From NCBI GenBank assembly GCA_965228895.1, contig OZ245842.1:736001-800000 (forward strand): a stretch of 64,000 nt of DNA, given 5' to 3'. The position numbers and the translations under genes were made by a program. The DNA is from Alphaproteobacteria bacterium (GTDB lineage Bacteria; Pseudomonadota; Alphaproteobacteria; SP197). Below are positions 1 through 17,882 of this stretch, in pieces; position 1 is the stretch's first letter, and each line of letters opens with the position of its first letter. The notes under the pieces are model-generated. The model saw only the letters and a program-made list of their open reading frames with translations, was not told where the DNA came from and did no database searches.

Positions 1-664
1 TGAACTCGAAGGGCTCCCAGATGCCGCGCATGGGCGTGGCGAACCCGCCTTCATCGCCGGTGTTGGTGGCGAGAATGCCGTACTTCTCAATGACGAGATC
101 GCGCAGCGCCTCGTTGATCTCCGTGGTGATCTGAAGCGCGTGAGCGTAGCTCTCCGCGCCCACGGGCATGATGATGAATTCTTGGATCTCCAGGTCGTTG
201 GCGGTCAGCTTGCCGCCGTTCAGACAATTCATCAGCGGTACCGGCAGCACCCGGCAAAGCGGGTTGATATAGCGATAGAGCGGCAGGCCGGAGACCTGTG
301 CGCCGGCGCGCGCGACTGCCAGAGAGACACCCAGGATCGCGTTGGCGCCCAGGCGGTTCTTGTTCGGTGTGCCGTCGAGTTCGCACATCACCTGGTCGAT
401 CCGCCGCTGTTCGGTGACGTCCATGCCCAGGACCGCTTCGGCGATCTCGCCGGTGACATTGGAGACGGCCTGGCGAACGCCCTGGCCGAAGTAGCGGTTA
501 CCGCCATCGTGCAGCACGCGGGCTTCGTGGGTGCCGGTCGAGCGGCCCTGGGGCACATCGGCGCGCCCGGCCATGATGCCGTCGACCCAGACATCGACCT
601 GGACCGTCGGCCAGCCCCGGCAATCGATGATTTCGCGGGCTCGGATGTCTGAGATTTCGTTCAT
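1..664 (-). CDS. eno: Divergent enolase-family protein, N-terminal ~220 aa (runs off the left edge of the window; absent from the ORF track)
   Basis: Manual translation from ATG at 664: MNEISDIRAREIIDCRGWPTVQVDV...VPQGRSTGTHEA...LDGTPNKNRLGANAILGVSLAVARA...LPVPLMNCLNGGKLTANDLEIQEFIIMPVGA...TGDEGGFA. The enolase fold motifs are clear but several conserved residues are substituted, so the symbol is family-level only. Confidence 0.9.
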   Translation of the reverse strand, partial: MNEISDIRAREIIDCRGWPTVQVDVWVDGIMAGRADVPQGRSTGTHEARVLHDGGNRYFGQGVRQAVSNVTGEIAEAVLGMDVTEQRRIDQVMCELDGTPNKNRLGANAILGVSLAVARAGAQVSGLPLYRYINPLCRVLPVPLMNCLNGGKLTANDLEIQEFIIMPVGAESYAHALQITTEINEALRDLVIEKYGILATNTGDEGGFATPMRGIWEPFEF

Positions 665-750
665 GGCGTGTCTTTCCGATCCGGTATGGACAAACCAGCG
701 GTAGCGCAGGTTCTGGGAAACGTTGGCTCGTGGCCAGGACGGTCGTTGAT

Positions 751-1707
751 CTAGCGCCGCTGGTCAAACGATTCGGCGAGCAGGCACAAAACTTCATACA
801 TCATGGTGGCGCCGACCAAGGCTGTATTGCCGCTGGGATCGAACGGCGGCGCGACCTCAACGATGTCGCCGCCGCGCAGATCGAGGCCGCGCAGGCCGCG
901 CAGAAGTTTCTGAGCATCGATCGTCGTCATGCCGCCGACTTCCGGTGTGCCGGTGCCCGGCGCGTAAACGGGATCGAGGCCATCGACGTCGAACGAGATA
1001 TAGGTCGGGCCGTCGCCGACAACACGGCGCGCTTCGGCAATCACCTTGTCGATCCCAATCTCGGCGACTTCCTCCATGAACACGACGCGCATGCCGCTCT
1101 CTATGGAGAAATCCCAGCCTTCATTCGTGTTCTGCGCGCCGCGAATGCCAATCTGCACGGTGCGCTTGGGGTCGAGCAGGCCGTCCTCGACAGCACGGCG
1201 GAAGGGCGCGCCATGGGTGAACTTGCAGCCCAGGAACTCGTCCCATGTATCGGTGTGGGCGTCGATGTGCACCATGCCAAGCGGCTGGTCAGTCGCGATC
1301 GCGCCAAAGATCGGATAGGTGATCGAGTGGTCGCCGCCGGCAGACAGTGGCACGACACCTTGAGCGTGCAAACGGGTGTAGTAGTCCCGGATGTCGTCCA
1401 TCACCGCTTCGATCTCAAAGACGCGGTGAAACAGCACATCGCCCGCATCGACGACCTTGCAGAGTTCGTAGGGATTGACCCGCGTCACGTGATGGATGGC
1501 GCGCATCAGGCTCGACATGTTGCGGATTTCACGCGGGCCGTGCCGTGCGCCCGGCCGGTTGGTCGTGCCGCCGTCAAACGGCACGCCGATCATGGCGATG
1601 TCAACATCGTCAAATTCGGTTGCCAGGGGTGCCCGCATGAAAGTCGGGATTTCGGTATAGCGCGGCGCGGTCATCGGGTCGCGGCGTTGTTCGCTGTTCG
1701 ATGTCAC
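751..1707 (-). CDS. speB: Ureohydrolase (agmatinase / guanidinopropionase-like)
   Basis: GVPFDGG..RPGARHGP, GGDHS, HIDAHTD, THG, SFDVDGLDP..APGTGTPEVGG. From memory it resembles Pseudomonas GpuA/GbuA. GTG start with GAGGGGGG RBS. Symbol is family-level; substrate unknown. Confidence 0.9.
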   Translation of the reverse strand: MTSNSEQRRDPMTAPRYTEIPTFMRAPLATEFDDVDIAMIGVPFDGGTTNRPGARHGPREIRNMSSLMRAIHHVTRVNPYELCKVVDAGDVLFHRVFEIEAVMDDIRDYYTRLHAQGVVPLSAGGDHSITYPIFGAIATDQPLGMVHIDAHTDTWDEFLGCKFTHGAPFRRAVEDGLLDPKRTVQIGIRGAQNTNEGWDFSIESGMRVVFMEEVAEIGIDKVIAEARRVVGDGPTYISFDVDGLDPVYAPGTGTPEVGGMTTIDAQKLLRGLRGLDLRGGDIVEVAPPFDPSGNTALVGATMMYEVLCLLAESFDQRR

Positions 1708-1754
1708 CGGCTTGAACCCCCCTCAATTTCCCGTCTAATGCGGCGGATCGTGGC

Positions 1755-1771
1755 ATCGACAATGTGTTGAT
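1755..1771. promoter_or_regulatory. Candidate LysR operator ATCGAC-N5-GTTGAT in a divergent promoter
   Basis: Near-palindrome atcgacaatgtgttgat in an AT-rich intergenic region between the ureohydrolase and the LysR. A similar 17-mer is at 15064-15080, and a second palindrome ttcgatatccgtcgaa at 1797-1812. Confidence 0.5.
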
Positions 1772-1837
1772 AAAATCTGATTTAACGCATAATTAATTCG
1801 ATATCCGTCGAACTGGGAAACGCTGGGGGTCCATGCC

Positions 1838-2779
1838 ATGCTGCATTCTCTCCACACACCCGATATTCGCCTGCTGCGCGTCTTCATGACCGTCGTCGAA
1901 TGCGGCGGGTTTTCGGCGGCGCAGATCGCGCTCAATGTCGGTCAGTCGACGATCAGCACGCAGATGAGCGATCTGGAAAGCCGGCTTGGGATGCGTCTGT
2001 GCCGGCGTGGGCGCAGCGGTTTCGCGCTGACCGAAGACGGCAAGTTCGTCTATGAGTCCGCGAAATCCCTGTTTCGCTCGATCGATCATTTTACCTCTGC
2101 GGTCAACGGCGCGCGTGGCGGGCTCAGCGGCGAGCTGCGTATCGCGTTTGCCGACGTGCTCTATCGCAACCCGGACTTTCGCCTGGCCCAGGCGATTGCC
2201 GTCTTTCTGGAGCGCGGCGCCGATGTTCGTTTCGATCTCAGCACGGCCAACCCTCTGGACATCGAACATGGCGTTCTCGGCGAACGTTACCACTTGGGCA
2301 TTCATACCTATCCCAGCCATGTCCCCGGCCTGCGTTACTATCCAGCGTTCAAGGAAGAGCAGACCCTCTATTGCGGGCGCAAACACCCGCTGTTCGAGCG
2401 GATCGGCAAGGGCCGGCTCAGCCTCGACGAGGTCCAGCAATTCGATTATGTGCAGCGGTCGTACTATGGCGGTGCCTTGTCGACCGGACCGTTCAAGCCG
2501 GCCAACATTGCGGCGTCGGCCGACAACATGGAAGCACTGCTGGTGCTCCTGATGTCCGGGCATTTTATCGGGCATCTGCCGACCGCCTGGGCCAGCGAGT
2601 ACGTCGCGCAAGGCGAACTGGCGCCGATTCTGCCCAAGAAGTCGCGCTACTACACGCAGTTCGAGATAGCGGTGCGTGTCGGTGGTCCCCAATCCATGCT
2701 GATCGAGACGTTTTTGTCGGACCTCAGGGAGCTGCTTCCAGGCGGCGGTTCTGACAAAAGCCTGGCGAAGGCGAGTTAG
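1838..2779 (+). CDS. LysR-family regulator (GpuR/GbuR/BauR-like)
   Basis: N-terminal HTH DIRLLRVFMTVVECGGFSAAQIALNVGQSTISTQMSDLESRLG; divergent from the ureohydrolase. Confidence 0.92.
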   Translation: MLHSLHTPDIRLLRVFMTVVECGGFSAAQIALNVGQSTISTQMSDLESRLGMRLCRRGRSGFALTEDGKFVYESAKSLFRSIDHFTSAVNGARGGLSGELRIAFADVLYRNPDFRLAQAIAVFLERGADVRFDLSTANPLDIEHGVLGERYHLGIHTYPSHVPGLRYYPAFKEEQTLYCGRKHPLFERIGKGRLSLDEVQQFDYVQRSYYGGALSTGPFKPANIAASADNMEALLVLLMSGHFIGHLPTAWASEYVAQGELAPILPKKSRYYTQFEIAVRVGGPQSMLIETFLSDLRELLPGGGSDKSLAKAS

Positions 2780-2909: not shown

Positions 2910-4172
2910 ATGCTGCCCAACGTCGTTCGTGTTCGCCAACCCATCAAGACCGACCCGCTCAGCGATATCAAAGCGGCAGTCCATGGTGGTGTCGCCAAAC
3001 TCGACTTGGCGTCGCGGACACAACCCGGCGACACAGTCGCGGTCGGCTGCAGCAGCCGTGGCATCGCGAACTACGGACATATCGTCGCGCACACGGTCGC
3101 GGCGCTGAAGCAGGCGGGCCTCAAACCCTTCCTGTTTCCGGCCATGGGCAGCCATGGCGCGGCGACCGCCGAGGGCCAGCGCCAGGTCCTGATCGGACAG
3201 GGTATCGAGCCCGCCGAACTCGATGTCACCATCGAGTCATCGCTCGACGTCGATCAGATCGCCGCGCTGGACGACATGGGGATTCCCGTCCTGATCGACC
3301 GCCATGCCAACGGCGCCGACCACATCGTCCTGATCAACCGCGTGAAGTCGCACACGGAGTTCACCCACAGCTTCGAAAGCGGTCTGATGAAGATGATGGC
3401 GATCGGCATGGGCAAGGAGGAGGGCGCCACGCTCTATCACAAGGCGTTCATGGTTCACGGCTACGCGCCGGTCATTCGCGCCATCGCCGATACGATCCTC
3501 GACACCGGCAAGATCCTGTTTGGCGTCGGCATTGTCGAGGACGGGCGCGCGCAAACCGCCGGTGTCGAGATCTTATCCAGCGAAGACCTGATCGCCGGGG
3601 AGGAGGCGCTGCTGCGCCAGTCCAAAGCGTTCGAGCCACGCCTACCGCTCGACGACATCGACGTGTTGCTGATCGACGAGATGGGCAAGGACATCTCCGG
3701 TTCCGGTTTCGACACCAAGGTTGTCGGCCGGATCAACATGCCGCTTGTGACCGCCGACCCCGAAACGCCGCGTATCAAACGCATCGTCGTGTGCGACCTG
3801 ACCGCCGCGTCAGCGGGCAATGCGGACGGCGTCGGCAGTGCCGACTTCATCACCAGACGCCTCTACGACAAAATCGATATCAAGGCACTCTACGTGAATG
3901 CTATCGCCGGTTCGGAACCGGAGCACGCGCGTATTCCCATGGTCATGGAAACGGCGCGCGAGGCGACCGAAGCCGCGGCCGGATCGGTTGGTCTGATCGC
4001 AACGGACGATCTCAAGCTGGTTCGCATTCAAAACACCCTTCGCCTCGAGGCGATCGACGTGTCAACGGCATGCCTGCCGGCTCTGGCTGGCCGCCCGGAC
4101 ATCACGGCGACCGGCGAACCGGCCGAACTGGCTTTCGATGGCGATGGTGAACTCCACCCATTTGATGGCTAG
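2910..4172 (+). CDS. LarA-superfamily (lactate racemase domain, DUF2088-type) NPN-dependent enzyme
   Basis: SSRGIAN, PAMGSHG, INRVKSHTEF, SGLMKMMAIGMG, LYH, MGKDISGSGFD; lies directly upstream of larC-larE-larB; AAGGA RBS. Confidence 0.82.
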   Translation: MLPNVVRVRQPIKTDPLSDIKAAVHGGVAKLDLASRTQPGDTVAVGCSSRGIANYGHIVAHTVAALKQAGLKPFLFPAMGSHGAATAEGQRQVLIGQGIEPAELDVTIESSLDVDQIAALDDMGIPVLIDRHANGADHIVLINRVKSHTEFTHSFESGLMKMMAIGMGKEEGATLYHKAFMVHGYAPVIRAIADTILDTGKILFGVGIVEDGRAQTAGVEILSSEDLIAGEEALLRQSKAFEPRLPLDDIDVLLIDEMGKDISGSGFDTKVVGRINMPLVTADPETPRIKRIVVCDLTAASAGNADGVGSADFITRRLYDKIDIKALYVNAIAGSEPEHARIPMVMETAREATEAAAGSVGLIATDDLKLVRIQNTLRLEAIDVSTACLPALAGRPDITATGEPAELAFDGDGELHPFDG

Positions 4173-4214: not shown

Positions 4215-5429
4215 ATGACAGCACCGCGCCATATCCACCTCGACATGCTTGGCGGCATTGCCGGCGATATGTTCGCCGCGGCGATGCTTGATGCGGTCCC
4301 GTCATCGCGTTCCGGCCTGTCCGAGGCGCTTTCGGCCGACGGCTTGGCGTCACTCGCCAAGGTGACATGGTCGGACGCCAGCAATGGCGGCATGGCCGGT
4401 GTCCATTTTTCCGTTAAGCCGCTTCACGCAGGCGGCCGCGATCACGATCACCGGTCCTATCGCGATGTCCTGAACATCCTGGCCGGCCTGCCGTTGGGCG
4501 ATACCGTCCGTGACCGCGCTCAGGCCATCTTCACCCTGCTCGCCGACGCCGAGGCGGCGGTTCACGGTGTCGACCGCGCGGATGTGGTGTTTCACGAGGT
4601 CGGCGCCGTCGACTCGATCATCGATATCGTCGCCGGCGCCTGGCTGATCGAGGCGGTCGCGCCCTGCACCTGGTCGTCGTCGCCGGTTCCGCTGGGATCG
4701 GGGCGTGTCCGGACCGACCACGGACCGCTCCCGGTGCCCGCGCCAGCCACGGCTCTGCTGCTGAAGGATATGCCGACCTTTGTCGACGGGATCGCCGGCG
4801 AACGGGTGACGCCGACCGGCGCGGCGCTGTTGAGGAACCTCAATCCGTCATTCGACGGTCCAGCGGCGGTGATGGCCTTGAACGCCACGGGTCACGGCCT
4901 TGGCACACGCCAGTTGGACGGCGTTGCCAATCTGCTGCGCGTGCTCGTGTTTGAAAGCAGCGTTTCGCAAGGGCAAGACGAGATTCTGTGCTGCACCTTC
5001 GAGATCGACGATCAGACACCGGAGGATCTGGCAGTCGGTCTCGATCGGCTGCGTGCTGTCGACGGTGTCGTCGACGTCTTGCAGATGTCTGCCATCGGCA
5101 AGCACGGGCGCCAGTGTACGCATATTCAGATCCTCGCCACGCCGGGACGCCTCGAACCGGTGGCCGAGGCCATCTTCCAGGAGACGACGACGCTGGGGCT
5201 CAGGTGGCAGCGCATGGCGCGACGTGTTCTCGCGCGTAACACCGTCGGAACCGACGGCGCCGGAACGTCCGTCGCCGTCAAGCTGGCAAAACGGCCGGAC
5301 GGCGTAACAACCGCGAAAGCGGAGATGGGCGATCTTGTCGATACACCTGGTGGTCACGAAGGCCGGCGTGTTGCACGTGCCAAGGCGGAAGGGTTGGCGC
5401 GCAATGGGGAAGGCGGGCGCAATGGCTGA
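4215..5429 (+). CDS. larC: Nickel-pincer cofactor nickel insertase LarC
   Basis: GIAGDMFAAA, short His patch HDHR, FHEVGAVDSIIDIV, HGPLPVPAPAT, GERVTPTGAA, EIDDQTPE, ETTTLGLR. Confidence 0.93.
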   Translation: MTAPRHIHLDMLGGIAGDMFAAAMLDAVPSSRSGLSEALSADGLASLAKVTWSDASNGGMAGVHFSVKPLHAGGRDHDHRSYRDVLNILAGLPLGDTVRDRAQAIFTLLADAEAAVHGVDRADVVFHEVGAVDSIIDIVAGAWLIEAVAPCTWSSSPVPLGSGRVRTDHGPLPVPAPATALLLKDMPTFVDGIAGERVTPTGAALLRNLNPSFDGPAAVMALNATGHGLGTRQLDGVANLLRVLVFESSVSQGQDEILCCTFEIDDQTPEDLAVGLDRLRAVDGVVDVLQMSAIGKHGRQCTHIQILATPGRLEPVAEAIFQETTTLGLRWQRMARRVLARNTVGTDGAGTSVAVKLAKRPDGVTTAKAEMGDLVDTPGGHEGRRVARAKAEGLARNGEGGRNG

Positions 5430-6270
5430 CGTCAAGGCCGGCCTCTTGGCGCTTCTCGCTCAACCCAAGGGCACGGCCCTTCTGGACGTCTTGTCGGGGG
5501 TTGGCGACAAGGCGCTCGCGGTCAGTGGCGGTGTCGACAGCATGACACTCGCCGTTATCGCCCACCGTGCCGATCCCGAGAGCTCGACCATTTGCCATGC
5601 TGTGTCGCCGGCGGTGCCGCCGGAAGCGACGGAACGGGTCAGGCAATACGCCGAGAAGGAGGGTTGGCGCCTCGACCTGATTGACGCCGGTGAGTTTGAC
5701 GATCCGCGTTATCTCGCCAACCCGCTCGACCGCTGTTTCTTCTGCAAGACCGATCTTTACGGCGCCATCGCCGCAGGACGCGCGGGGACGACCTTGATGT
5801 CGGGCACCAATCTCGACGATCTCGGCGATTTCCGGCCGGGCCTGAAGGCTGCGGCGAACCACGATGTCATACATCCGTTCGTTGAAGCGAATTTCACCAA
5901 GGCCGACATTCGCGCGGCGGCCGATGCGCTTGGTCTGAGCGACATTAAGGTACTGCCCGCCATGCCGTGCCTGGCAAGCAGGATCGAGACGGGCCTTGCC
6001 GTTTCCCCGGACCTCGTGCGTAGCGTGCACGCCGCCGAGACGCTGGTTGCCAAGCACGTCGACGTTGCGACCGTGCGCTGCCGGGTCGCGCACAACGGCA
6101 TCCGCATCGAACTTGATGAGGATGCGCTCGCGGGCTTGAGTGGCCCAAGTCGAGACATGCTTGCGGACAAGATCGCTCAACTTTTCAGCCGGACCGATAC
6201 GGTACCTGGCGTTCTGTTTGCCGCCTACAAACAGGGTAGCGCGTTCATCGGCAAACCCGGCGATGACTGA
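5422..6270 (+). CDS. larE: ATP-dependent sulfur transferase LarE (PP-loop)
   Basis: AVSGGVDS PP-loop, NPLDRCFFCK, GTNLDDLGDFRPGLKAA, PCLASRI; ATG at 5422 overlaps the larC stop (ATGGCTGA). Confidence 0.9.
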   Translation: MADVKAGLLALLAQPKGTALLDVLSGVGDKALAVSGGVDSMTLAVIAHRADPESSTICHAVSPAVPPEATERVRQYAEKEGWRLDLIDAGEFDDPRYLANPLDRCFFCKTDLYGAIAAGRAGTTLMSGTNLDDLGDFRPGLKAAANHDVIHPFVEANFTKADIRAAADALGLSDIKVLPAMPCLASRIETGLAVSPDLVRSVHAAETLVAKHVDVATVRCRVAHNGIRIELDEDALAGLSGPSRDMLADKIAQLFSRTDTVPGVLFAAYKQGSAFIGKPGDD

Positions 6271-10384: not shown

Positions 10385-10876
10385 TCAGTCGGCCGCGCGC
10401 CTGCCGGCGCTATCGCTCGCCCGCATCTTTTCCGCCGCTTTCATCACGGCATCGACGATGTAGGGATAGGCGCCGCAGCGGCAGATGTTGCCGCTCATGG
10501 CGATCGCCGTTTCCTCGCGTGTCGGGTCGGGGTTTGCCGCCAGAAACGCCTTGGCGCTCATGACAAAACCGGGCGTGCAGAAGGCGCACTGAAACCCCTG
10601 TTCTTCGATGAAGGCCTCTTGGATCGGGTGCAGGTCGTCGCCTGTGCCCAGACCTTCGATGGTCTGAAGGTCGTGCTGTTCGGCCTGGTTGACGAGGACC
10701 ATGCATGAGGTGACGGGTTCGCCGTCGACCAGCACCGTGCACGAGCCGCACTCACCTTCCGAACAGGAGACGCGCACGCCAATAAGGCCGAGGTCGTTGC
10801 GCAGGACGTCGGCCAGCGTGCGGTTGGGCGCCACGTCCAACTCATGCGTCTCGCCATTGACCTTGAGTGTCGTCAT
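10385..10876 (-). CDS. Molybdenum hydroxylase [2Fe-2S] small subunit (CoxS-like)
   Basis: CSEGECGSCTV..SC, QCAFCTPG, NICRCG. Confidence 0.95.
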   Translation of the reverse strand: MTTLKVNGETHELDVAPNRTLADVLRNDLGLIGVRVSCSEGECGSCTVLVDGEPVTSCMVLVNQAEQHDLQTIEGLGTGDDLHPIQEAFIEEQGFQCAFCTPGFVMSAKAFLAANPDPTREETAIAMSGNICRCGAYPYIVDAVMKAAEKMRASDSAGRRAAD

Positions 10877-11845: not shown

Positions 11846-12997
11846 TCAAGGGCCGACGCGGCCGATCCACTTGTTGGAACTATACTCCTGGTCGTATCCC
11901 TCGGAGCCCAGCCATTCGATGATGCTGTTGTCGATACCGTCGGCGGCTGACACACGTTCATCCATAACGCCGGCCTCCGAATAGACATCGGCGAACAGCT
12001 CCCACGTGTCGGCGAGATAGCCGGCCTCGCAGTCAGCCTTGTCACCGACCATCTGCCCCCAGCCGCTGGCGGATGCCGGCGGCGCCGGCGCGCCTTCAGG
12101 AATGCTGGCGCACAGGGGTTCGCCGCCTTCTAGGCCGACGGCGCCCATGTTCTGGTTGATGTTCAGCATGACCGCGCCGTACTGGGTCAGGCGCACGTCC
12201 TCGACGGGCCAATCCAGACCTGCGGCGACGATCTCGTTGCCTTCATCGGGGTTTTCCTTCCACCAGTTGACGGCCTCGAACCAGGCGCGAATGACTTCGC
12301 GGGCGGTGTCCGGGTTCGCCTCGAGCCATTCCTGATTGCAGGCGATCGAGTCGGAGATCAGGCCGCGTTCCCACGTCTTGTCGGTGAAGCTGGATTTCAG
12401 CATGTGCGAATCCTCGCGCTCCAATGATTGGGTCGAGAACGGGATCCACGTGACGTCGACGTCCAGTGCGCCGCTGGCGAACGCCGCCGTCGACTCCTGG
12501 GGCAACATGATCGTGTGATTGACCTCGTCGAACGGAATACCCGCCCGTTTCAGGGTCAACAGCATCCACATGTGGTTCAAGAAGCCGTAATCAGCGGCAA
12601 ACGTGCGGCCGCGCAGGTCCGCTTCGGTCTGGATGTCATTGGAGACAACCATCTGGTCGAGGCCATAGGACATCAGCGGCACGGCGACATGCTTCACCGG
12701 CACGGCCGACGAGGCGGTAACGACCGTGTTGTCCATGGTTGTCATGATGCACTGGATCGAGTTGTTCGAGAGGCCGGCATTGCGCGCGGTCGTATCCTCG
12801 ATGATCTTGACATCGACATTGATGCCGTCGGCCAGACCCTTTTCCTTGACGATGAACCAGGGGCCGTAGACCGAGACGGAAATGATGGAGACGGTGAAGT
12901 CTTCCTCGGCATGAGGTGATGCCGTGGGGATCGTGCTGCCTGCAACGGCGAGGCAGAACGCGAGCGCCGCGGTTGGCAGCGAAAGCAAACTTCTCAT
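11846..12997 (-). CDS. ABC transporter substrate-binding protein (NitT/TauT/SsuA-like)
   Basis: Signal peptide; YGPWFIVKEKGL, SYGLDQMVV, DLRGRTFA, VTWIPF; AAGGAGGAGG RBS; in an operon with ATPase and permease. Confidence 0.85.
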   Translation of the reverse strand: MRSLLSLPTAALAFCLAVAGSTIPTASPHAEEDFTVSIISVSVYGPWFIVKEKGLADGINVDVKIIEDTTARNAGLSNNSIQCIMTTMDNTVVTASSAVPVKHVAVPLMSYGLDQMVVSNDIQTEADLRGRTFAADYGFLNHMWMLLTLKRAGIPFDEVNHTIMLPQESTAAFASGALDVDVTWIPFSTQSLEREDSHMLKSSFTDKTWERGLISDSIACNQEWLEANPDTAREVIRAWFEAVNWWKENPDEGNEIVAAGLDWPVEDVRLTQYGAVMLNINQNMGAVGLEGGEPLCASIPEGAPAPPASASGWGQMVGDKADCEAGYLADTWELFADVYSEAGVMDERVSAADGIDNSIIEWLGSEGYDQEYSSNKWIGRVGP

Positions 12998-13063
12998 GGG
13001 GTCCTCCTCCTTAGGGTCGTTTGTTGTTGGCGGGCACGCGACAACAGCACTGACACGTACCTG

Positions 13064-13873
13064 TCATTGCGCCTGAATCTCTTCGCGCATCCAGGCGAAC
13101 AGCTGGCGTTCGGTTTCGATGTAGCCGGGCTCCGCCAAGAGCTCTTCTTTCTTGGCAAAGCGCCGGCCTTGCTTGAACTCCAGCAGTATGTCCTGCTTGA
13201 TCCGGCCGGGGTTGCGCGTGAAGAAGACGATTCGATCGGCGAGATAGATCGCCTCCTGGATGTCGTGGGTCACCGCGATCACCGTCTTTTTCTCAGCCTC
13301 GATGATCTCGATCATCATTTCCTGCATTTCCCAGCGGACCTGTGCGTCGAGCGCGCCGAACGGCTCATCCATCAACAGCACCGTCGGGTTCTGCGCCAGT
13401 GTGCGGGCGATTGCGACGCGCTGTTTCATGCCGCCGGAGAGTTCGCTGGGATAGGACTTGGCCGCGTGGCCCAGGTGCACTTCCTCGAGCAACTGCTTGG
13501 CCTTTGCCTGTCGTTCTTTCTTCGGCACGCCCAAGATCTTCATGCCGTATTCGATGTTGCCGAGCGCGGTGAGCCATGGAAACGACGTATAGGCCTGGAA
13601 CACCATGCCGCGGTCGGGGCCGGGCCCGATAATCGGCTGGTCGTAGACCGTGATAGCGCCTTCCGTCGGCAGCTCGAGGCCGGCGATCATGCGCAGCATA
13701 GTCGTCTTGCCGCAGCCCGAAGGCCCGATAAAGGCGGTCACTTGGCCTTCCGGCAGGTCGAGCGTGATGTCGTCGACCGCGGTGAAGCTGCCGCCCAGAT
13801 AGCGCCGGGTGACGCCGGTAGCGCGAATGGCGACATTGTCGGTTGTTGACGTGGTGCTTGCGGGCTGCGCCAT
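13064..13873 (-). CDS. ABC transporter ATP-binding protein (TauB/SsuB-like)
   Basis: GPSGCGKTT, PGPDRGMVFQ, LSGGMKQR, LLMDEPFGALD. Confidence 0.95.
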   Translation of the reverse strand: MAQPASTTSTTDNVAIRATGVTRRYLGGSFTAVDDITLDLPEGQVTAFIGPSGCGKTTMLRMIAGLELPTEGAITVYDQPIIGPGPDRGMVFQAYTSFPWLTALGNIEYGMKILGVPKKERQAKAKQLLEEVHLGHAAKSYPSELSGGMKQRVAIARTLAQNPTVLLMDEPFGALDAQVRWEMQEMMIEIIEAEKKTVIAVTHDIQEAIYLADRIVFFTRNPGRIKQDILLEFKQGRRFAKKEELLAEPGYIETERQLFAWMREEIQAQ

Positions 13874-13876
13874 GAC

Positions 13877-14755
13877 TCAACCCCGTCGCTTGCGGTTCCA
13901 GGGAAAGAAGTAGTGGGCGGCGATGCGGAAGCTGATATCGGTCAGCACGCCCAATATGCCAATCGTCAGAATGCCCGCCATGATGATGTCGACTTTCAAG
14001 AACCGCCCCGCGCGCATCATCACCGCGCCGATGCCGTCCTGGGCCGCGACAATCTCCGCGATCACAAGATAGGTCCAGCTCACCGCGATCATGTTGCGCA
14101 TGGAATCGACAATCGCCGGCGAGGCCGCGCGTACGACGACGCCCATGACGATCTGGCGCCGTGTTGCGCCCATGGTGAGCGCCGCCTCGACCAGCGCTTT
14201 CTCGACCGCCTCGGTGTTGTCCAGAATGAGGGCGACCAGAAAGAAGATGACGCCCAGAAACAGCAGCGCGAGCTTTTGCGTATCGGTCGGTCCGAACCAG
14301 ACCAGCAGCAGCGGGATGAACGAGGCCGCCGGCAAGTAGCGTGCGCCGGAAAAGATCGGGTTTATCAGCGCGCGCATGTTCGAAAAGCAGCCCATGAAGA
14401 CGCCAAGCGGAATGGCGAGCAGACAGGCGGCAAAGAAGCTTGCGAAAACGCGCGCGACCGAGATGCCGACATCGGCCATGTAGTCTTTCTCGGTGATCAG
14501 CATGACGAGCGTCGAGATGACGTGCTGCGGTGACGGCAGGAAGCGCCGGCTTTCTTCCGGTGTCAGGTAATGACCGGCTTCCCACAGCAGGAAGAACGCG
14601 GCGCCGCCGATCAGCCCGTAGATGGCCGTCTGGCGGGAGTTGACGGGGGTCAGAAGTCTAAGCGCCTGACGTCGTCTGCCGCCGGCAGGCCCATCCTTGC
14701 GCTGCGTGCCCGTGGGAACGGTGCCCGCTCTAGCGTTCTTTGCCGCGTCCACCAT
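13877..14755 (-). CDS. ABC transporter permease (TauC/SsuC-like)
   Basis: FLPSP, hydrophobic helices, EAALTMGA (EAA motif), WTYLVIAE; probable ATG at 14755. Confidence 0.92.
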   Translation of the reverse strand: MVDAAKNARAGTVPTGTQRKDGPAGGRRRQALRLLTPVNSRQTAIYGLIGGAAFFLLWEAGHYLTPEESRRFLPSPQHVISTLVMLITEKDYMADVGISVARVFASFFAACLLAIPLGVFMGCFSNMRALINPIFSGARYLPAASFIPLLLVWFGPTDTQKLALLFLGVIFFLVALILDNTEAVEKALVEAALTMGATRRQIVMGVVVRAASPAIVDSMRNMIAVSWTYLVIAEIVAAQDGIGAVMMRAGRFLKVDIIMAGILTIGILGVLTDISFRIAAHYFFPWNRKRRG

Positions 14756-14762
14756 GCGCCCC

Positions 14763-14809
14763 TTGCCCCGCGTCGTCGTTGGCATCGTCTTCACGACGCC
14801 TTGGGGCAA
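14763..14809 (-). promoter_or_regulatory. Leader stem-loop abutting the RBS of the ABC permease
   Basis: On the minus strand: ttgcccc-aag-gcgtcgt-(16 nt)-acgacgc-ggggcaa, followed immediately by ggggcgcATG. Confidence 0.4.
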
Positions 14810-15034
14810 AGACTGAACCTGCAATAACGTTCGACGAATCGCTGATTCGCTACCTATTCATTCAGCTTGGGAAATGTATTGGCTGCCCGCCAGGAATTGA
14901 AGTTACGGCCTTTGCGTGGCTTTGGCCGCCGGTTATGGCATTGCTGGACGTTCCGTAATGTACCTGGACAGCGCTCAACTCTGTCACCCGCTGTGTTGGG
15001 CTTGAGCGCTTCAGAACCAATTGACCTGTTCACT

Positions 15035-15059: not shown

Positions 15060-15063
15060 TCTA

Positions 15064-15128: not shown

Positions 15129-16058
15129 ATGGCCTTTCGCATCAGCGATGTCGATATTCGCCAACTTCATGTTTTTCGAGCTGTTGTCGAATGCCGCGGT
15201 TTCACGAGCGCGCAGTCGGTGCTGAACATCGGTCAATCGACCATCAGCAATCAAATGGCGCAGCTCGAGACGCGTCTGGGTGTTCGCCTTTGCGAACGCG
15301 GTCGGACCGGATTCGAGCTCACGCCGAAAGGCCGGCGTGTTTACGAGGAAACGCTGAAGCTGTTCCGGGCGCACGAGGATTTCCAGAACATCACGTCAGA
15401 ACTGAAAGGACGCTTGAGCGGCTATCTCAACATCGCGCTGATCGACAACGTGGCGACCGATCCGGAATGCCCGATCGTGCGAGCCCTCAACCTCTTCAAC
15501 AGCCGGGACCATGAGGTCAGCGTGCGCATGGAGATCATGCCGCCCGGCGATATCGAACGCGCGGTGCTGGATCTCGACATCGATGTTGCGATCGGGACCT
15601 TTCACCACCGGGTACCCGGACTCGACTATCGCGACATCTATATCGAAGAGAACGCACTTTTGTGCGGATATCAAAACCCGATCTTTTCGATGACCGACGA
15701 TGCCGAGATTCACGAGGCCGTGCGCACGGCGCGCAAGGTCACGCGCTCCTATCTCGATAAACACGACATCGCATCACTGGGTGAAGACGAGGGCGCGCCG
15801 TTCGCGGTCGTGCAGCATCTGGAAGCCGCAGCGATCCTCATTCTGGGCGGCGGTCATATCGGCTTTTTGCCGCGCCATCTCGCCCAGCTATGGGTGTCGC
15901 GCAACGAGATGAAACCGGTCTTGCCCTTGGAGTACGTCTACAAGTCCGTCTTCTCGATCGTGACCCGCAAGGCGCCCAGGAAGTCGATGATCCTGAAATC
16001 CTTTTTGGCCGACCTCACCGAAGCCTCGCAACTCGGTGACCAGCTTCGGGTTGCTTAG
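15129..16058 (+). CDS. LysR-family regulator, paralog of 1838..2779
   Basis: DIRQLHVFRAVVECRGFTSAQSVLNIGQSTISNQMAQLETRLGVRLCERGR. Confidence 0.92.
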   Translation: MAFRISDVDIRQLHVFRAVVECRGFTSAQSVLNIGQSTISNQMAQLETRLGVRLCERGRTGFELTPKGRRVYEETLKLFRAHEDFQNITSELKGRLSGYLNIALIDNVATDPECPIVRALNLFNSRDHEVSVRMEIMPPGDIERAVLDLDIDVAIGTFHHRVPGLDYRDIYIEENALLCGYQNPIFSMTDDAEIHEAVRTARKVTRSYLDKHDIASLGEDEGAPFAVVQHLEAAAILILGGGHIGFLPRHLAQLWVSRNEMKPVLPLEYVYKSVFSIVTRKAPRKSMILKSFLADLTEASQLGDQLRVA

Positions 16059-16104
16059 TCCGAGGGCGTAGCGTCACAACAAGACCAGCAAGGTGGGGGT
16101 ACGC

Positions 16105-16956
16105 ATGGCCGAGCAAGGCGGATTCAAGGCGGGGTTGTCCTATTACGACTTCGGGCGCACGACGTTCCATGCGTCGCAGTTCGACCAACGATTTTCGTAT
16201 TGTCTCTACGTACCGCTCGACTATGAGGAGAACGGCTGCAAGACCTATCGCCTGGCGGTGACGATTCATGGAACCGGGCGCAATGCGGCGGGCTACCGCG
16301 ACAGCTTGTCGGACTTTGCCGACGCCAACGACTGCATCATCCTGGCGCCGCTTTTCCCTGCCGGTATCGCCAAACCAGGTGATCTCTCGGGTTACAAACT
16401 GATTGGCTCTCACGGCATTCGCTACGATCACGTGCTGCTCGCTATGATCGACGAAATCGCTGGCAAGTACCGTGTCGATGCCGAGCGCTTCTTGCTCTAC
16501 GGCTTTTCCGGCGGCGGTCATTTCAACCATCGGTTTTTCTATCTCCACCCCGAGCGGCTGCTCGGGGCCTCGATCGGTGCGCCCGGCGTTGTGACCCTGC
16601 TCGATCAAACCCGTGATTGGTGGGTCGGCGTCAGAAATCTCGAGGCGGTGTTCGGCAAGGCCCTGGACATAGACCGCATGCGCGAGGTCGCGGTCCAGAT
16701 GGTGATCGGCGATGAAGACACCGACACCTGGGAGATCACGATTCGACCCGGAAGCTCGTGGTGGATGGAGGAGGCCAACATCGCAGGCTCGACCCGGATC
16801 GACCGCATCAACGCACTGCGCGAAAGCTACGAGGACGAAGGGATCGCCGTCAGGCTGGATACCGTTCCTGGTACCGCCCACGAGCCCGATGCGGTGATTG
16901 AGCCGGTGAAACAGTTCTTTGCCGACGTGCTGCTCGGCCGCTCGGTGCGGCTCTGA
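16105..16956 (+). CDS. Alpha/beta hydrolase (poly(aspartate) hydrolase-like)
   Basis: IHGTGR oxyanion region, GFSGGG nucleophile elbow, GDED, GTAH. Confidence 0.8.
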   Translation: MAEQGGFKAGLSYYDFGRTTFHASQFDQRFSYCLYVPLDYEENGCKTYRLAVTIHGTGRNAAGYRDSLSDFADANDCIILAPLFPAGIAKPGDLSGYKLIGSHGIRYDHVLLAMIDEIAGKYRVDAERFLLYGFSGGGHFNHRFFYLHPERLLGASIGAPGVVTLLDQTRDWWVGVRNLEAVFGKALDIDRMREVAVQMVIGDEDTDTWEITIRPGSSWWMEEANIAGSTRIDRINALRESYEDEGIAVRLDTVPGTAHEPDAVIEPVKQFFADVLLGRSVRL

Positions 16957-16979
16957 CGTCTGGCCACAGGCGTGTTGCG

Positions 16980-17882
16980 TTACTCGGCCGCCCGTTCGAC
17001 CACGACGGGTCCGTCGTAATAGGGCAGGCGCTCGACGCGAGGTGTGTAGCGGCCCGACCCGATTTCGCTCCTGACATGGGCGGCAATATCATCCATGCGC
17101 GCGAACCAAACGTCGCCCTTGTCCTGCATATAAGTGATCAGACCTTCGACCGCGCGCAGCCGCGCCAGGCGCCCGGAAACGAACGGATGCCAGACGGCGA
17201 TCCACAGGCCCCCATAGTCCCACGCGGCGTCGAACTCCTCACGGAACCCGGCTATCGCCTCGGACGGTGAGCGAATCGACATCATGTAGTCGAGATCGCT
17301 CATGTGGACGTAGGGCGGCCAGTCGTCGAGCCCCCAATGGGTCGGCAGTTCGACGAGATCACCGCGATCGGACTGGATGAGATAAGGGATATCGTCGCCC
17401 ATCAAAGAGGCGTCGTAGGTGAAGCCTTCCTCCAGGAGCAGATCGAGCGTGTGGTCGGAGAAGTTATAGAGCGGCGCCCGGAAACCGCGCGGTCGCTCAC
17501 CCGTATGACGTTCGATGATCTCGATACCGCGGCGCAACCAATGCTGCTCTTCGGCGCGCGACAACTCGTTGGGGTGTTCGTGGATGTAACCGTGATGGGC
17601 GACTTCGTGGCCATCCTTGACCATCGCCGCGACGGCGTCGGGGTAACGTTCGATGCACCAAGCGGGTACATAGAACGTCTGCTTCAACTCATGACGCCGG
17701 TAAAGGTCAAGGATGCGCGGCATGGCGACGGAAGGGCCGTATCGCAGTTGGGAAAGCGCGGAGATCCTGCGATGCGCATCGCTCGGATGGGCCAGGTGCA
17801 GGATGCTGTCGGCATCCATGTCGAAGGTGAATGCGACCGCGCAACGCGCGCCGTTCGGCCATGAAACTCCGTTTTCAATCAT
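16980..17882 (-). CDS. Polysaccharide deacetylase family protein (PuuE/PgdA-like)
   Basis: WPNGARCAVAFTFDMD, HEVAHHGYIHE, GFRAP, YDASLMGDDIPY, WHPFVSGR. Confidence 0.88.
   Translation of the reverse strand: MIENGVSWPNGARCAVAFTFDMDADSILHLAHPSDAHRRISALSQLRYGPSVAMPRILDLYRRHELKQTFYVPAWCIERYPDAVAAMVKDGHEVAHHGYIHEHPNELSRAEEQHWLRRGIEIIERHTGERPRGFRAPLYNFSDHTLDLLLEEGFTYDASLMGDDIPYLIQSDRGDLVELPTHWGLDDWPPYVHMSDLDYMMSIRSPSEAIAGFREEFDAAWDYGGLWIAVWHPFVSGRLARLRAVEGLITYMQDKGDVWFARMDDIAAHVRSEIGSGRYTPRVERLPYYDGPVVVERAAE

What the first reader, a model, noticed from the sequence alone, without database searches (positions are those of the whole stretch)
1..17882. Candidate undescribed catabolic island coupling a nickel-pincer enzyme to ureohydrolases, an atypical enolase and a Mo-hydroxylase
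Seen: a complete larA-like/larC/larE/larB cassette sits between a ureohydrolase-enolase operon and an ABC transporter-coxMSL-ureohydrolase operon. It is bracketed by two paralogous LysRs that share an operator-like 17-mer, with an alpha/beta hydrolase and a PuuE-like deacetylase alongside. Established: LarB/E/C make the NPN cofactor; characterised LarA homologs racemise or epimerise 2-hydroxy acids; GpuR/GbuR-type LysRs control guanidino-acid ureohydrolases; XDH-family enzymes hydroxylate N-heterocycles or oxidise aldehydes. Inference: one pathway running uptake -> oxidation -> ring/amide opening -> urea release -> racemisation of a hydroxy acid -> dehydration, acting on a guanidino or N-heterocyclic compound. 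I know of no described pathway combining these families.
Basis: partly seen in the sequence, partly recalled or inferred. Interest (0 to 1): 0.85.

Follow-up and report, generated by a model that had tools for sequence, protein, structure and literature searches.

The report
Nickel-racemase, kinase and odd enolase cluster
The region holds two separately inherited gene clusters for breaking down nitrogen-rich compounds, and one of them pairs a nickel-cofactor racemase with a dedicated kinase and an enolase whose active site is altered, a combination with no described function.

Summary
The genes are there as described, but they are not one island. Module 1 runs 5.7 kb past the left edge of the window. 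It comprises an SsuA-like ABC transporter and an SDR; a MOFRL kinase, enolase and GpuA-like ureohydrolase; and LysR1, LarA homolog (NCBIfam group 22) and LarC/E/B. This block is syntenic in Arenicellales and Kiloniellaceae. Module 2 comprises an ABC transporter, coxMSL, ureohydrolase B, LysR2 and a PuuE-like hydrolase. It recurs in 30 loci without a LarA homolog, MOFRL kinase or enolase (a LarB match in one). The two modules adjoin only in this genus.

The enolase is a second copy. Two substrate-contacting histidines are replaced (Glu and Leu). In 27 of 28 loci carrying this variant, a MOFRL kinase lies beside it, and one natural kinase-enolase fusion exists. The LarA homolog accompanies the pair only in some loci. 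The "shared 17-mer" lies inside the two LysR coding regions, so it is not an operator.

Best reading: a 3-guanidino C3 hydroxy acid gives urea plus a 2-hydroxy acid, which is racemised, phosphorylated at O2, then converted to PEP by an enolase-type elimination. Whether the leaving group is hydroxide or an amine is open. No substrate was shown.

The parts
1..664 (-). Module 1: N-terminal 221 codons of the variant enolase (eno*). The full gene spans window -619..664 (427 aa). Downstream on the same strand, outside the window, lies a MOFRL/DUF4147 kinase (-2014..-653). Further left lie the SDR (-2814..-2029 +), ATPase, permease and SsuA-like binding protein (-5688..-2815 +).
   Evidence: TIGR01060 504 bits. 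'SERSG' and 'GGKLTAN' in place of the canonical His motifs; the kinase carries DUF4147 + MOFRL.
751..1707 (-). Module 1: ureohydrolase A, a member of the GpuA (3-guanidinopropionase) subfamily but not the GpuA ortholog.
   Evidence: Pfam Arginase, 298 bits; best solved relative is 3NIP, 409 bits; a paralog elsewhere in the genome scores 531 bits against 3NIP and is followed by a LysR gene.
1838..2779 (+). Module 1: LysR1, divergent from the ureohydrolase A-enolase-kinase operon and upstream of the LarA homolog.
   Evidence: Conserved in the same position in L002-L005 at 50-96% identity.
2910..4172 (+). Module 1: LarA homolog of group 22, a predicted nickel-pincer-nucleotide (NPN) dependent 2-hydroxy-acid racemase or epimerase.
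   Evidence: NF052515 452 bits, above the 400 cut-off. AF2 model at pLDDT 83; every Foldseek hit listed through rank 19 is a LarA-family structure. R50, H82, H148, K161 and H177 are invariant in 13 sequences.
4215..5429 (+). LarC (LarC1 and LarC2 fused), the nickel insertase for the NPN cofactor.
   Evidence: TIGR00299 182 bits and NF052512 96 bits, both above cut-off.
5422..6270 (+). LarE sulfur transferase. The longest ORF starts at 5335. The ATG at 5422 overlaps the LarC stop and is the likelier start.
   Evidence: TIGR00268 225 bits; start codons.
6263..6934 (+). LarB, the NaAD carboxylase/hydrolase. The longest ORF starts at 6140. The ATG at 6263 overlaps the LarE stop.
   Evidence: NF033503 244 bits..
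6941..7924 (-). Module 2: ureohydrolase B, the last gene of the cox operon.
   Evidence: best solved relative 1WOG, 195 bits. Orthologs at 69-95% identity in 9 of 30 coxL loci.
8019..10367 (-). Module 2: Mo-binding large subunit (coxL type) of an XDH/CODH-family hydroxylase of unknown substrate.
   Evidence: no NCBIfam equivalog cut-off reached; best solved relative is 4-hydroxybenzoyl-CoA reductase alpha, 261 bits, over half the protein.
10385..10876 (-). Module 2: [2Fe-2S] small subunit.
10873..11760 (-). Module 2: FAD subunit. The longest ORF runs to 12045, but the domain begins at residue 99. The ATG at 11760 fits the 292-aa orthologs.
11846..14824 (-). Module 2: NMT1/SsuA-like binding protein (11846-12997), ATPase (13064-13873) and permease (13877-14824).
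   Evidence: Co-conserved with coxMSL in 14-15 of the 18 coxL loci clustered.
15129..16058 (+). Module 2: LysR2, divergent from the ABC-cox operon.
   Evidence: Orthologs at 53-62% identity in 19 of 30 coxL loci.
16093..16956 (+). Alpha/beta hydrolase. It is not conserved with either module.
   Evidence: Found in 0 of 80 and 0 of 30 loci.
16980..17882 (-). PuuE-like polysaccharide-deacetylase-family hydrolase. In other genomes it belongs to module 2. A homolog also sits inside module 1 in three genomes.
   Evidence: Present in 18 of 30 coxL loci at 34-65% identity. Found inside module 1 in L005 (63%), L119 (54%) and as a fragment in L003.

Best explanation
The region holds two independent catabolic modules that happen to adjoin in this genus.

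Module 1 consists of three parts:
- an SsuA-like ABC transporter with an SDR;
- a MOFRL kinase, variant enolase and GpuA-like ureohydrolase A;
- LysR1, the group-22 LarA homolog and LarCEB.

Module 1 most likely takes up a C3 guanidino acid carrying a 2-hydroxyl, such as 3-guanidino-2-hydroxypropanoate, or a cyclic precursor opened by a PuuE-like hydrolase. The proposed steps are:
1. Ureohydrolase A removes the guanidino group as urea.
2. The remaining amino-hydroxy acid (isoserine-like) is converted to glycerate by a transaminase encoded elsewhere together with the SDR.
3. The NPN-dependent LarA homolog inverts C2, so that the enantiomer the kinase does not accept can also be used.
4. The MOFRL kinase phosphorylates the 2-hydroxyl.
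5. The dedicated enolase eliminates the C3 substituent to give phosphoenolpyruvate.

Shown here:
- the gene families;
- synteny of the whole block across two classes;
- near-obligate pairing of the kinase with the variant enolase;
- the altered enolase active site;
- the LarA fold, and the LarC/LarE/LarB genes encoded beside the LarA homolog.

Inferred: every substrate, the order of steps, and the role of the SDR.

Module 2 consists of the ABC transporter, coxMSL and ureohydrolase B, with LysR2 and the PuuE-like hydrolase. It is a separate, widespread cluster. It probably hydroxylates an N-heterocycle carrying an amidine or guanidine moiety, opens the ring and releases urea. Its substrate is unknown.
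For: Independence of the two modules:
- Of 80 loci encoding LarA-homolog relatives, 0 carry coxL, coxS or coxM.
- Of 30 coxL loci, 0 carry the LarA homolog, kinase or enolase. By contrast, 19 carry LysR2, 18 a PuuE-like gene and 9 ureohydrolase B. Gene order is conserved.
- At genome level, 0 of 3 Arenicellales genomes with module 1 have a coxL ortholog.
- 4 of 5 module-2 genomes have no LarA homolog.
- Among 18 relatives in the same family, the LarA homolog is found in 2 and coxL in 6. They adjoin only in the same genus.

Module 1 as a unit:
- The order SBP-permease-ATPase-SDR / kinase-enolase-ureohydrolase A / LysR-LarA homolog is identical in L002-L005 and L119.
- Kinase and enolase both lie beside the LarA homolog in 14 of the 23 loci where that homolog is at least 50% identical. 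They lie beside it in 0 of the 57 more distant loci.
- In Desulfobacterales the three genes are contiguous and co-directional.

The kinase-enolase pair:
- 28 loci carry the 'SERSG' enolase variant, and 27 of them have the MOFRL kinase within 6 kb. 0 of 3 canonical 'SHRSG' loci do.
- P0074 is a natural fusion of DUF4147-MOFRL with an enolase.
- The genome already has a canonical enolase in a pyrG-kdsA-eno-pdhA context (638 bits). It also has a second MOFRL kinase, beside pyruvate kinase and glcEF-type glycolate oxidase subunit genes.

Family assignments:
- Ureohydrolase A's closest solved relative is 3-guanidinopropionase.
- LarA-family enzymes racemise glycerate and other small 2-hydroxy acids (PMC11770544: abstract, section 6 and passages read).
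- Kinase-enolase neighbourhoods elsewhere hold 2-oxo-acid reductases (GhrA-like, ApbA, Ldh_2, SDR), alanine dehydrogenase, aminotransferases and SHMT. These fit a route from amino acid to 2-oxo acid to 2-hydroxy acid to 2-phospho acid.
Against: - No substrate was tested.
- The conserved block has no transaminase or other deaminating enzyme to turn the amine left by a GpuA-type reaction into glycerate.
- The enolase lacks both conserved substrate-contacting histidines. Ordinary 2-phosphoglycerate may therefore not be its substrate.
- The kinase scores far below the glycerate-2-kinase equivalog cut-offs (213 bits against 550).
- Nine of the 23 closest LarA-homolog loci show no kinase or enolase, although several of these have short flanks.
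- A PuuE-like gene occurs in both modules, so some chemical kinship between their substrates is not excluded.
- 3-Guanidino-2-hydroxypropanoate is my construct. I know of no report of it as a natural product.
Confidence: 0.45

Rival explanations
1. Amine-lyase reading of module 1. The kinase phosphorylates a 3-amino-2-hydroxy acid (isoserine or an N-methylated form) rather than glycerate. The variant enolase then eliminates the amine (ammonia, methylamine or trimethylamine) instead of water and yields PEP directly. Ureohydrolase A supplies isoserine from the guanidino acid, and the LarA homolog racemises it.
For: - The position of yeast His373, which sits by the C3 substituent, is Glu in all 12 enolases of the close clade and Gly in 3 of a sister clade. 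The sister clade has also lost the general acid Glu211 ('ASSYGF' / 'ARSYGY'). That loss is tolerable only with a leaving group better than hydroxide.
- The conserved module has no deaminating enzyme, and under this reading none is needed.
- In Desulfobacterales the operon lies beside MttB genes with a single in-frame TAG at codon 328, the pyrrolysine type. These score above the trimethylamine methyltransferase cut-off, and corrinoid and MtbA-like proteins are also nearby.
- In L133 the order is corrinoid protein, MtmB, enolase, kinase on one strand. This is as if the released methylamine were consumed on the spot.
- Canonical copies of the kinase and the enolase already exist in the genome.
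Against: - The close clade keeps Glu211, Lys345 and all metal ligands, and it passes the enolase equivalog cut-off.
- The conserved SDR has no role in this scheme.
- Many neighbourhoods contain 2-oxo-acid reductases, alanine dehydrogenase and SHMT, which fit serine to hydroxypyruvate to glycerate at least as well.
- Residue roles are recalled from the yeast enzyme and were not modelled here.
- No such enzyme activity is known.
Confidence: 0.3
2. One reading: all genes from 1 to 17882 form one pathway, running uptake, Mo-dependent oxidation, ring opening, urea release, racemisation, dehydration.
For: - The halves adjoin in this genome and in a same-genus relative with identical spacing.
- L110 shows larB next to ureohydrolase B.
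- One Kiloniellaceae MAG carries both halves, on different contigs.
- Both halves contain the same accessory set: an SsuA/NMT1-like ABC transporter, an SDR, a PuuE-like hydrolase, a ureohydrolase and a LysR.
Against: - 0 of 80 and 0 of 30 loci show cross-occurrence.
- Genomes carrying one half lack the other.
- In one genus of the same family, 4 of 9 genomes have coxL and none has the LarA homolog.
- In L005, 3.7 kb of sequence follows larB with no cox genes.
Confidence: 0.1
3. The enolase and kinase are ordinary spare glycolytic or glycerate enzymes, and the LarA homolog acts on an unrelated acid. Under this reading module 1 is a mosaic without a common substrate.
For: - The enolase passes TIGR01060 (504 bits).
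- Dedicated lower-glycolysis genes do occur in catabolic operons. An example is the tartrate operon of Agrobacterium vitis, which has a MOFRL protein and a pyruvate kinase (recalled, not checked).
Against: - Block synteny is conserved across Alpha- and Gammaproteobacteria at 50-96% identity.
- The three core genes are contiguous in Desulfobacterales, Holophagae and Kribbella.
- The kinase accompanies the enolase variant in 27 of 28 loci.
- The active-site substitutions are conserved across phyla.
Confidence: 0.07

Closest known systems
[quoted passage not shown]
   Same: - LarA fold: the top Foldseek hits are all LarA-family structures.
- An NCBIfam group-22 model is matched above cut-off, and LarC, LarE and LarB lie directly downstream.
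- Candidate catalytic and cofactor residues are invariant.
   Different: - No sequence-level match to any solved LarA, even with a profile.
- Only 29.6 bits to Pfam Lar_N.
- Group 22 has no assigned substrate in the main texts I read (PMC7583248 passages; PMC11770544 section 6 and passages).
- The genomic partner here is a kinase-enolase pair, which those texts do not mention.
Glycerate branch of serine and glyoxylate metabolism: hydroxypyruvate or tartronate-semialdehyde reductase, MOFRL glycerate 2-kinase, enolase
   Same: - The kinase has the DUF4147 + MOFRL architecture.
- The enolase keeps its metal ligands and acid/base residues.
- The predicted product is PEP.
- Reductases, SHMT and aminotransferases occur in related loci.
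   Different: - Both proteins are second copies beside canonical ones.
- The kinase scores below the equivalog cut-offs.
- The enolase lacks the His159 and His373 equivalents.
- The module is coupled to a ureohydrolase and an NPN racemase.
Pseudomonas aeruginosa GpuA/GpuR 3-guanidinopropionate system
   Same: Ureohydrolase A's best solved relative is GpuA (3NIP, 409 bits). A LysR gene is divergent from it.
   Different: - The genome's true GpuA-like ortholog is another gene (531 bits, followed by its own LysR).
- LysR1 was not tested against GpuR.
- The operon partners here are an enolase and a kinase, which are not part of the P. aeruginosa system (recalled).
Purine and oxidative pyrimidine catabolism: an XDH-family hydroxylase followed by a ring-opening amidohydrolase such as PuuE allantoinase
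   Same: Module 2 combines a three-subunit XDH-family enzyme, a PuuE-like hydrolase, a transporter and a LysR.
   Different: - No subunit reaches any named equivalog cut-off.
- The PuuE-like protein scores 100 bits against a cut-off of 425.
- An arginase-family enzyme, not part of the known purine or pyrimidine routes (recalled), accompanies the cluster in 9 of 30 loci.

Membership tests
LarA (NPN-dependent racemase/epimerase) superfamily | Two-domain LarA fold | tested here: met
   AF2 model at pLDDT 83, pTM 0.82. Every Foldseek PDB hit listed through rank 19 is a LarA-family structure, with E from 2e-11 to 3e-6.
LarA (NPN-dependent racemase/epimerase) superfamily | Two catalytic histidines, the cofactor-tethering lysine and the nickel-binding histidine (His108, His174, Lys184, His200 of L. 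plantarum LarA) | tested here: inconclusive
   H82, H148, K161 and H177 are invariant in 13 homologs. H82 to H148 is 66 residues, as is His108 to His174. K161 to H177 is 16 residues, as is Lys184 to His200. The equivalence rests on spacing and on the residue numbers given in PMC11770544. No residue-level superposition was available.
LarA (NPN-dependent racemase/epimerase) superfamily | NPN biosynthesis genes present | tested here: met
   LarC, LarE and LarB all score above NCBIfam cut-offs and lie directly downstream. Each is a single copy in the genome.
LarA (NPN-dependent racemase/epimerase) superfamily | Racemase or epimerase activity on a 2-hydroxy acid | not testable with these tools
   This needs NPN-loaded protein and chiral analysis.
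Canonical enolase (phosphopyruvate hydratase) | Family model, metal ligands and acid/base pair (yeast Asp246, Glu295, Asp320, Lys345, Glu211, Lys396; numbering recalled) | tested here: met
   TIGR01060 scores 504 bits against a cut-off of 300. The motifs GDEGGF, LD, EDP, GDDL, KVNQIG and QIKTG are kept.
Canonical enolase (phosphopyruvate hydratase) | Substrate-contacting His159 and His373 (yeast numbering, recalled) | tested here: not met
   The sequence has 'GGKLTAN' and 'SERSG' where the genome's own housekeeping enolase has 'GGAHADN' and 'SHRSG'. Glu occupies the His373 position in 12 of the 15 cluster-associated enolases and Gly in the other 3.
Canonical enolase (phosphopyruvate hydratase) | Sole or housekeeping copy | tested here: not met
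   A second enolase, 51% identical and scoring 638 bits against TIGR01060, lies in a pyrG-kdsA-eno-pdhA context.
Glycerate 2-kinase (MOFRL family) | DUF4147 + MOFRL architecture | tested here: met
Glycerate 2-kinase (MOFRL family) | Equivalog-level match to characterised glycerate 2-kinases | tested here: not met
   NF041176 scores 213 bits against a cut-off of 550, and NF040791 scores 159 against 670. The genome's other MOFRL copy is also below cut-off (235 bits), so this test discriminates weakly.
3-Guanidinopropionase GpuA | Orthology to P. aeruginosa GpuA | tested here: not met
   Ureohydrolase A scores 409 bits against 3NIP. A paralog scores 531 bits and is followed by a LysR. Ureohydrolase A is therefore a diverged member of the same subfamily.
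PuuE allantoinase | Equivalog-level match | tested here: not met
   TIGR03212 scores 100 bits against a cut-off of 424.6.
Xanthine dehydrogenase / CO dehydrogenase family | Three subunits with Mo-cofactor, 2Fe-2S and FAD domains | tested here: met
   No named equivalog cut-off is reached, so the substrate is unassigned.
GpuR/GbuR-type LysR regulators | Orthology to GpuR or GbuR, and a shared operator | tested here: not met
   No shared intergenic 17-mer exists. The LysR beside the GpuA ortholog is not among LysR1's six listed paralogs. No direct comparison with P. aeruginosa proteins was made.

The most novel reading that the evidence does not exclude
The variant enolase is not a hydratase. 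It would be a 2-phospho-3-aminopropanoate amine-lyase. Together with the MOFRL kinase it would form a 'phosphorylate, then eliminate' route that turns isoserine-type beta-amino-alpha-hydroxy acids directly into PEP plus ammonia, methylamine or trimethylamine. The group-22 NPN racemase would make both enantiomers usable. Upstream enzymes would feed this one core: ureohydrolase here, and pyrrolysine-type methylamine methyltransferase systems in Desulfobacterales. This would be a new reaction for the enolase family, a first physiological role for LarA group 22, and a new anaerobic source of methylamines.
Probability: 0.3. Interest if true: 0.9.

Novelty: new variant of a known kind. Interest (0 to 1): 0.7.

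Why it matters
- LarA group 22 has no assigned function. A conserved genomic partner gives a short list of candidate substrates to test: glycerate, isoserine and their N-substituted forms.
- The enolase family proper is usually treated as having one function. Here a clade spread across at least seven phyla has lost two conserved active-site histidines and almost always travels with its own kinase.
- 48 of the 150 nearest cluster representatives lack the S-H-R-S-G motif. These proteins pass the standard enolase model and would be annotated as glycolytic enolase.
- If the leaving group is an amine, this is a new route from amino-hydroxy acids to PEP and a new source of methylamines in sediments.
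- Module 2 is a widespread marine cluster for an unidentified N-heterocycle, and it would be worth a ligand screen.

Tried and rejected
- **Shared LysR operator.** Rejected. The only 15 of 17 match is homologous HTH-coding sequence.
- **Sequence search of solved structures with the LarA homolog.** No LarA hit, either alone or as a 13-sequence profile. Only the fold search worked.
- **Literature.** Six searches found no paper on an enolase / MOFRL / LarA cluster, on isoserine catabolism by such enzymes, or on a Mo-hydroxylase / PuuE-like / ureohydrolase cluster. The library excludes most subscription journals.
- **Supplements.** Table S1 and Fig. S1 of PMC7583248 list genomic contexts for each LarA group. 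Supplements are closed, so I could not see them, and they may already note neighbours of group 22.
- **Fused forms.** A search restricted to longer proteins returned mostly enolase fusions with other glycolytic enzymes, many from eukaryotic sources. None of the 120 listed carries MOFRL. The single MOFRL-enolase fusion came from the representative search.
- **Expression.** No RNA holder is listed for the stretch, and no reads were laid.
- **Guanidine hydrolase reading of the ureohydrolases.** Both score only about 146-154 bits against the Synechocystis 'agmatinase 2' structures, so I did not pursue it.
- **Sulfolactate / sulfite-elimination reading of the kinase-enolase pair.** I considered it because of the SsuA-like binding protein and an Ldh_2 protein with weak likeness to sulfolactate dehydrogenase in L133. 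I set it aside for two reasons. No Pfam family suggestive of sulfite export or oxidation was reported among the neighbours scanned. A Glu at the His373 position also suits an anionic leaving group poorly.

Full report
**What is in the sequence.**
- An enolase N-terminus lies at 1-664 (-).
- An arginase-family gene lies at 751-1707 (-).
- LysR1 lies at 1838-2779 (+).
- A LarA homolog lies at 2910-4172 (+). It matches NCBIfam NF052515, 'nickel pincer cofactor-dependent isomerase, group 22', at 452 bits against a cut-off of 400. It scores only 29.6 bits against Pfam Lar_N.
- LarC, LarE and LarB follow. All are above cut-off, and their likely starts overlap the preceding stop codons.
- A second arginase-family gene lies at 6941-7924 (-).
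- Three XDH/CODH-family subunits follow, then an NMT1/SsuA-like ABC transporter, both on the minus strand.
- LysR2 is on the plus strand. An alpha/beta hydrolase follows (Atlas 0.99).
- A PuuE-like deacetylase-family gene closes the region. It scores 100 bits against an allantoinase cut-off of 425.

**The left edge was cut.** The window is G000:C1:736001-800000. Reading upstream shows that the enolase is a full 427-aa gene. On the same strand it is followed by a 453-aa DUF4147 + MOFRL protein, the glycerate-2-kinase fold. That protein scores 213 bits against an equivalog cut-off of 550. Beyond it, on the other strand, lie a second SsuA-like binding protein, a permease, an ATPase and an SDR.

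**The 17-mer.** No 17-mer is shared between the two LysR-flanking intergenic regions beyond 12 of 17. Shuffles of one region reach 13 or more in 99 of 300 trials. The only 15 of 17 match (1938-1958 and 15229-15249) lies inside both LysR genes, 100 nt from each start. It is therefore homologous HTH-coding sequence. The two LysRs are 37-38% identical, no closer than LysR1 is to another LysR elsewhere in the genome.

**Two modules, not one island.** I fetched 80 loci encoding relatives of the LarA homolog and searched them with every protein of the region.
- The block SBP-permease-ATPase-SDR / kinase-enolase-ureohydrolase A / LysR1-LarA homolog is present in the same order in L002 (an alphaproteobacterial MAG, 85-96% identity), two Arenicellales genomes and a Kiloniellaceae MAG. 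A third Arenicellales genome, L119, appeared later.
- Kinase and enolase together occur in 14 loci. All 14 are among the 23 whose LarA homolog is at least 50% identical.
- None of the 57 more distant loci has kinase and enolase.
- coxL, coxS, coxM and the alpha/beta hydrolase occur in 0 of 80.

I then ran the converse test. Thirty loci with coxL relatives (61-100% identity in the best aligned segment) were searched the same way.
- They carry coxS and coxM, the transporter, and LysR2 (19 loci).
- 18 carry a PuuE-like gene and 9 carry ureohydrolase B.
- Many also carry an SDR. Gene order is conserved.
- They carry the LarA homolog, kinase or enolase in 0 of 30.

The genome-level picture agrees.
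- The three Arenicellales genomes with module 1 have no coxL ortholog at E of 1e-50 or better.
- Four of five module-2 genomes have no LarA homolog. The fifth has a 39% relative.
- Among 18 family relatives, the LarA homolog occurs only in the two of the same genus. coxL occurs in those two plus 4 of 9 genomes of another genus.
- In the same-genus genome G011 the two genes lie 5.1 kb apart, as here.

The adjacency is therefore specific to this genus.

**The enolase is a distinct kind.** The genome has a canonical enolase, 51% identical and scoring 638 bits against TIGR01060, in a pyrG-kdsA-eno-pdhA context. It also has another MOFRL protein, beside pyruvate kinase and genes for glycolate oxidase subunits GlcE and GlcF.

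The closest solved relative of the cluster enolase is the Methanocaldococcus jannaschii enzyme 2PA6. The differences emerge from aligning it with that enzyme, with the housekeeping copy and with 14 cluster-associated enolases.
- The metal ligands, Lys345, Glu211 and Lys396 are kept (yeast numbering, recalled).
- The His373 position is Glu in 12 cluster enzymes and Gly in 3.
- The His159 position is Leu in the close clade.
- Loop 1 reads 'QGRSTG' in this genome's enzyme, where the canonical sequence is 'SGASTG'. The first two positions vary among the cluster enzymes.
- The three Holophagae and Kribbella enzymes have also lost Glu211.

**The kinase is its constant partner.** I fetched loci by the enolase itself. 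28 carry the 'SERSG' form, and 27 of them have the MOFRL kinase within 6 kb. The LarA homolog is present in only 7 of the 28, and 6 of those 7 lie on contigs already fetched. Three canonical 'SHRSG' loci have no kinase.

In a search of 1.84 billion cluster representatives, one hit (P0074, 908 aa) is a DUF4147-MOFRL-enolase fusion with a non-canonical enolase part. Two others fuse an APH-type kinase to non-canonical enolases. 48 of the best 150 lack S-H-R-S-G. The basic unit is therefore kinase plus variant enolase, and the LarA homolog is an optional front end. That is what one expects of a racemase feeding a stereospecific kinase.

**The LarA homolog.** No solved LarA is found by sequence or by profile. 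An AlphaFold model built from 13 homologs reaches pLDDT 83. It retrieves only LarA-family structures through rank 19, with E down to 2e-11. R50, H82, H148, K161 and H177 are invariant. Their spacings (66 and 16 residues) equal those of His108-His174 and Lys184-His200 in the L. plantarum enzyme, whose residue numbers are given in PMC11770544. This suggests that both catalytic histidines are present. Group 22 is not assigned a substrate in the texts I could read.

**Ureohydrolase A.** Its best solved relative is P. aeruginosa 3-guanidinopropionase (409 bits). Another paralog in the genome scores 531 bits and is followed by its own LysR. Ureohydrolase A is therefore a diverged member of that subfamily, which suggests a modified C3 guanidino acid as substrate. 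The genome is rich in arginase-family genes: at least seven further hits for each query, and two more within this window.

**What the neighbourhoods say.** Around the kinase-enolase pair in other phyla lie several classes of gene.
- Ring-opening or N-deprotecting hydrolases: creatininase-like, hydantoinase A/B, CN-hydrolase, an OTCase-like protein, and an 8-oxoguanine-deaminase-like amidohydrolase.
- Amino-acid deaminating enzymes: alanine dehydrogenase, OCD/mu-crystallin, DAO, and class I and class III aminotransferases.
- 2-Oxo-acid reductases: GhrA-like, ApbA, Ldh_2 and SDR.
- SHMT and GntR/IclR regulators.
- In Desulfobacterales and an Anaerolineae MAG, methylamine methyltransferases with corrinoid proteins.

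Three of the MttB genes carry a single in-frame TAG at codon 328. That is the pyrrolysine hallmark of true trimethylamine methyltransferases. The uninterrupted copies score above the TIGR02369 cut-off.

**Mechanism.** All contexts point to a nitrogen-substituted C3 acid that ends as a 2-hydroxy acid. That acid is phosphorylated and then undergoes an enolase-type elimination to PEP.

My preferred version (0.45) runs as follows:
1. A guanidino-hydroxy acid is cleaved to urea and an isoserine-like amine.
2. A transaminase encoded elsewhere converts the amine to tartronate semialdehyde.
3. The SDR reduces that to glycerate.
4. The LarA homolog supplies the D form.
5. The kinase makes 2-phosphoglycerate.
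6. The enolase makes PEP.

Weak points of this version are the missing transaminase, the redundancy with the canonical kinase and enolase, and the altered enolase pocket.

The bolder version (0.3) keeps the nitrogen until the last step. The kinase acts on the amino-hydroxy acid and the enolase eliminates the amine. This version explains four observations:
- the Glu at the C3 pocket;
- the loss of the general acid in the sister clade;
- the absence of a deaminase;
- the methylamine methyltransferases next door.

It leaves the SDR without a role, and it rests on residue roles that I recall rather than tested.

**Module 2.** The Mo subunit has no close characterised relative. The best is 4-hydroxybenzoyl-CoA reductase alpha at 261 bits over half its length. 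The conserved set is an NMT1/SsuA-like transporter, a Mo-hydroxylase, a PuuE-like hydrolase, often an SDR and a ureohydrolase, and a LysR. The substrate is unknown. A PuuE-like gene also sits inside module 1 in L005, L119 and, as a fragment, L003. The two modules may therefore act on chemically related compounds without being one pathway.

**Verdict.**
- The single-pathway interpretation is not supported.
- The region still contains something new: a conserved module that gives LarA group 22 its first functional context, and a widespread non-canonical enolase clade tied to its own kinase.
- I found nothing in print on either. The caveats are the limits of the library and the closed supplements.

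Noticed in passing
window 42497-43471 (+) and 48420-49388 (-): Two further arginase-family genes lie in the same window. The first is followed by a GMC oxidoreductase, a class II aldolase and an Ldh_2 dehydrogenase. The second lies beside a TauD-family dioxygenase (49494-50570) and a LysR (50686-51567). The genome holds at least seven further arginase-family loci per query. A dioxygenase next to a ureohydrolase could produce hydroxylated guanidino acids.
   Followed up: partly
L022:2698-4164 (-), L024:3108-4592 (-), L009:17027-18499 (-): MttB genes with one in-frame TAG at codon 328, the pyrrolysine type, lie next to the enolase-kinase-LarA operons of Desulfobacterales MAGs. Uninterrupted MttB paralogs lie beside them.
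   Followed up: partly
P0074, P0059, P0132 (protein representatives): Natural fusions of a kinase with a non-canonical enolase. P0074 is DUF4147-MOFRL-enolase with Leu at the His373 position. P0059 and P0132 are APH-family kinase-enolase fusions with Ala and Gly at that position.
   Followed up: partly
Best 150 enolase-family cluster representatives: 48 of 150 lack the S-H-R-S-G motif. Ala occupies the His position in 15, Glu in 3, and others carry Leu, Val, Ile, Gly or Arg. This was a regular-expression count, not an alignment.
   Followed up: partly
L136:980-2464 (+) and L137:978-2498 (+): In L136 an amidohydrolase scoring above the 8-oxoguanine deaminase cut-off (554 bits against 532) lies upstream of a creatininase-like gene, the variant enolase and the kinase. 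L137, another Acidimicrobiales MAG, has the same arrangement with a Pfam Amidohydro_1 protein that was not scored against the NCBIfam model.
   Followed up: no
window 5422-6270 (+): LarE carries a CFFC pair and a third cysteine in a 'PCLASR' motif. Three cysteines are said to mark the [4Fe-4S]-dependent LarE type rather than the sacrificial type. This is recalled from the abstract of PMC9283937 and was not checked residue by residue.
   Followed up: no
L003:12282-15511: A DDE transposase and a reverse transcriptase gene lie directly downstream of the LarA homolog in one Arenicellales genome, which has no larBCE at that place.
   Followed up: no
L153:2330-6262: The genome's likely true GpuA ortholog (531 bits against 3NIP) lies between a Rieske oxygenase / TauD-family pair and its own LysR.
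   Followed up: partly
window 18069-23380 and 37765-39390: Other genes near the region: an ORF of 294 aa with no family (18069-18953); a family III CoA-transferase (19463-20872; nearest model is succinyl-CoA:mesaconate CoA-transferase, below cut-off); glycerol-3-phosphate dehydrogenase (21824-23380); and an N,N-dimethylformamidase-beta-like protein (37765-39390).
   Followed up: no
G026 (same family): One relative carries two coxL copies, at 71% and 62% identity.
   Followed up: no
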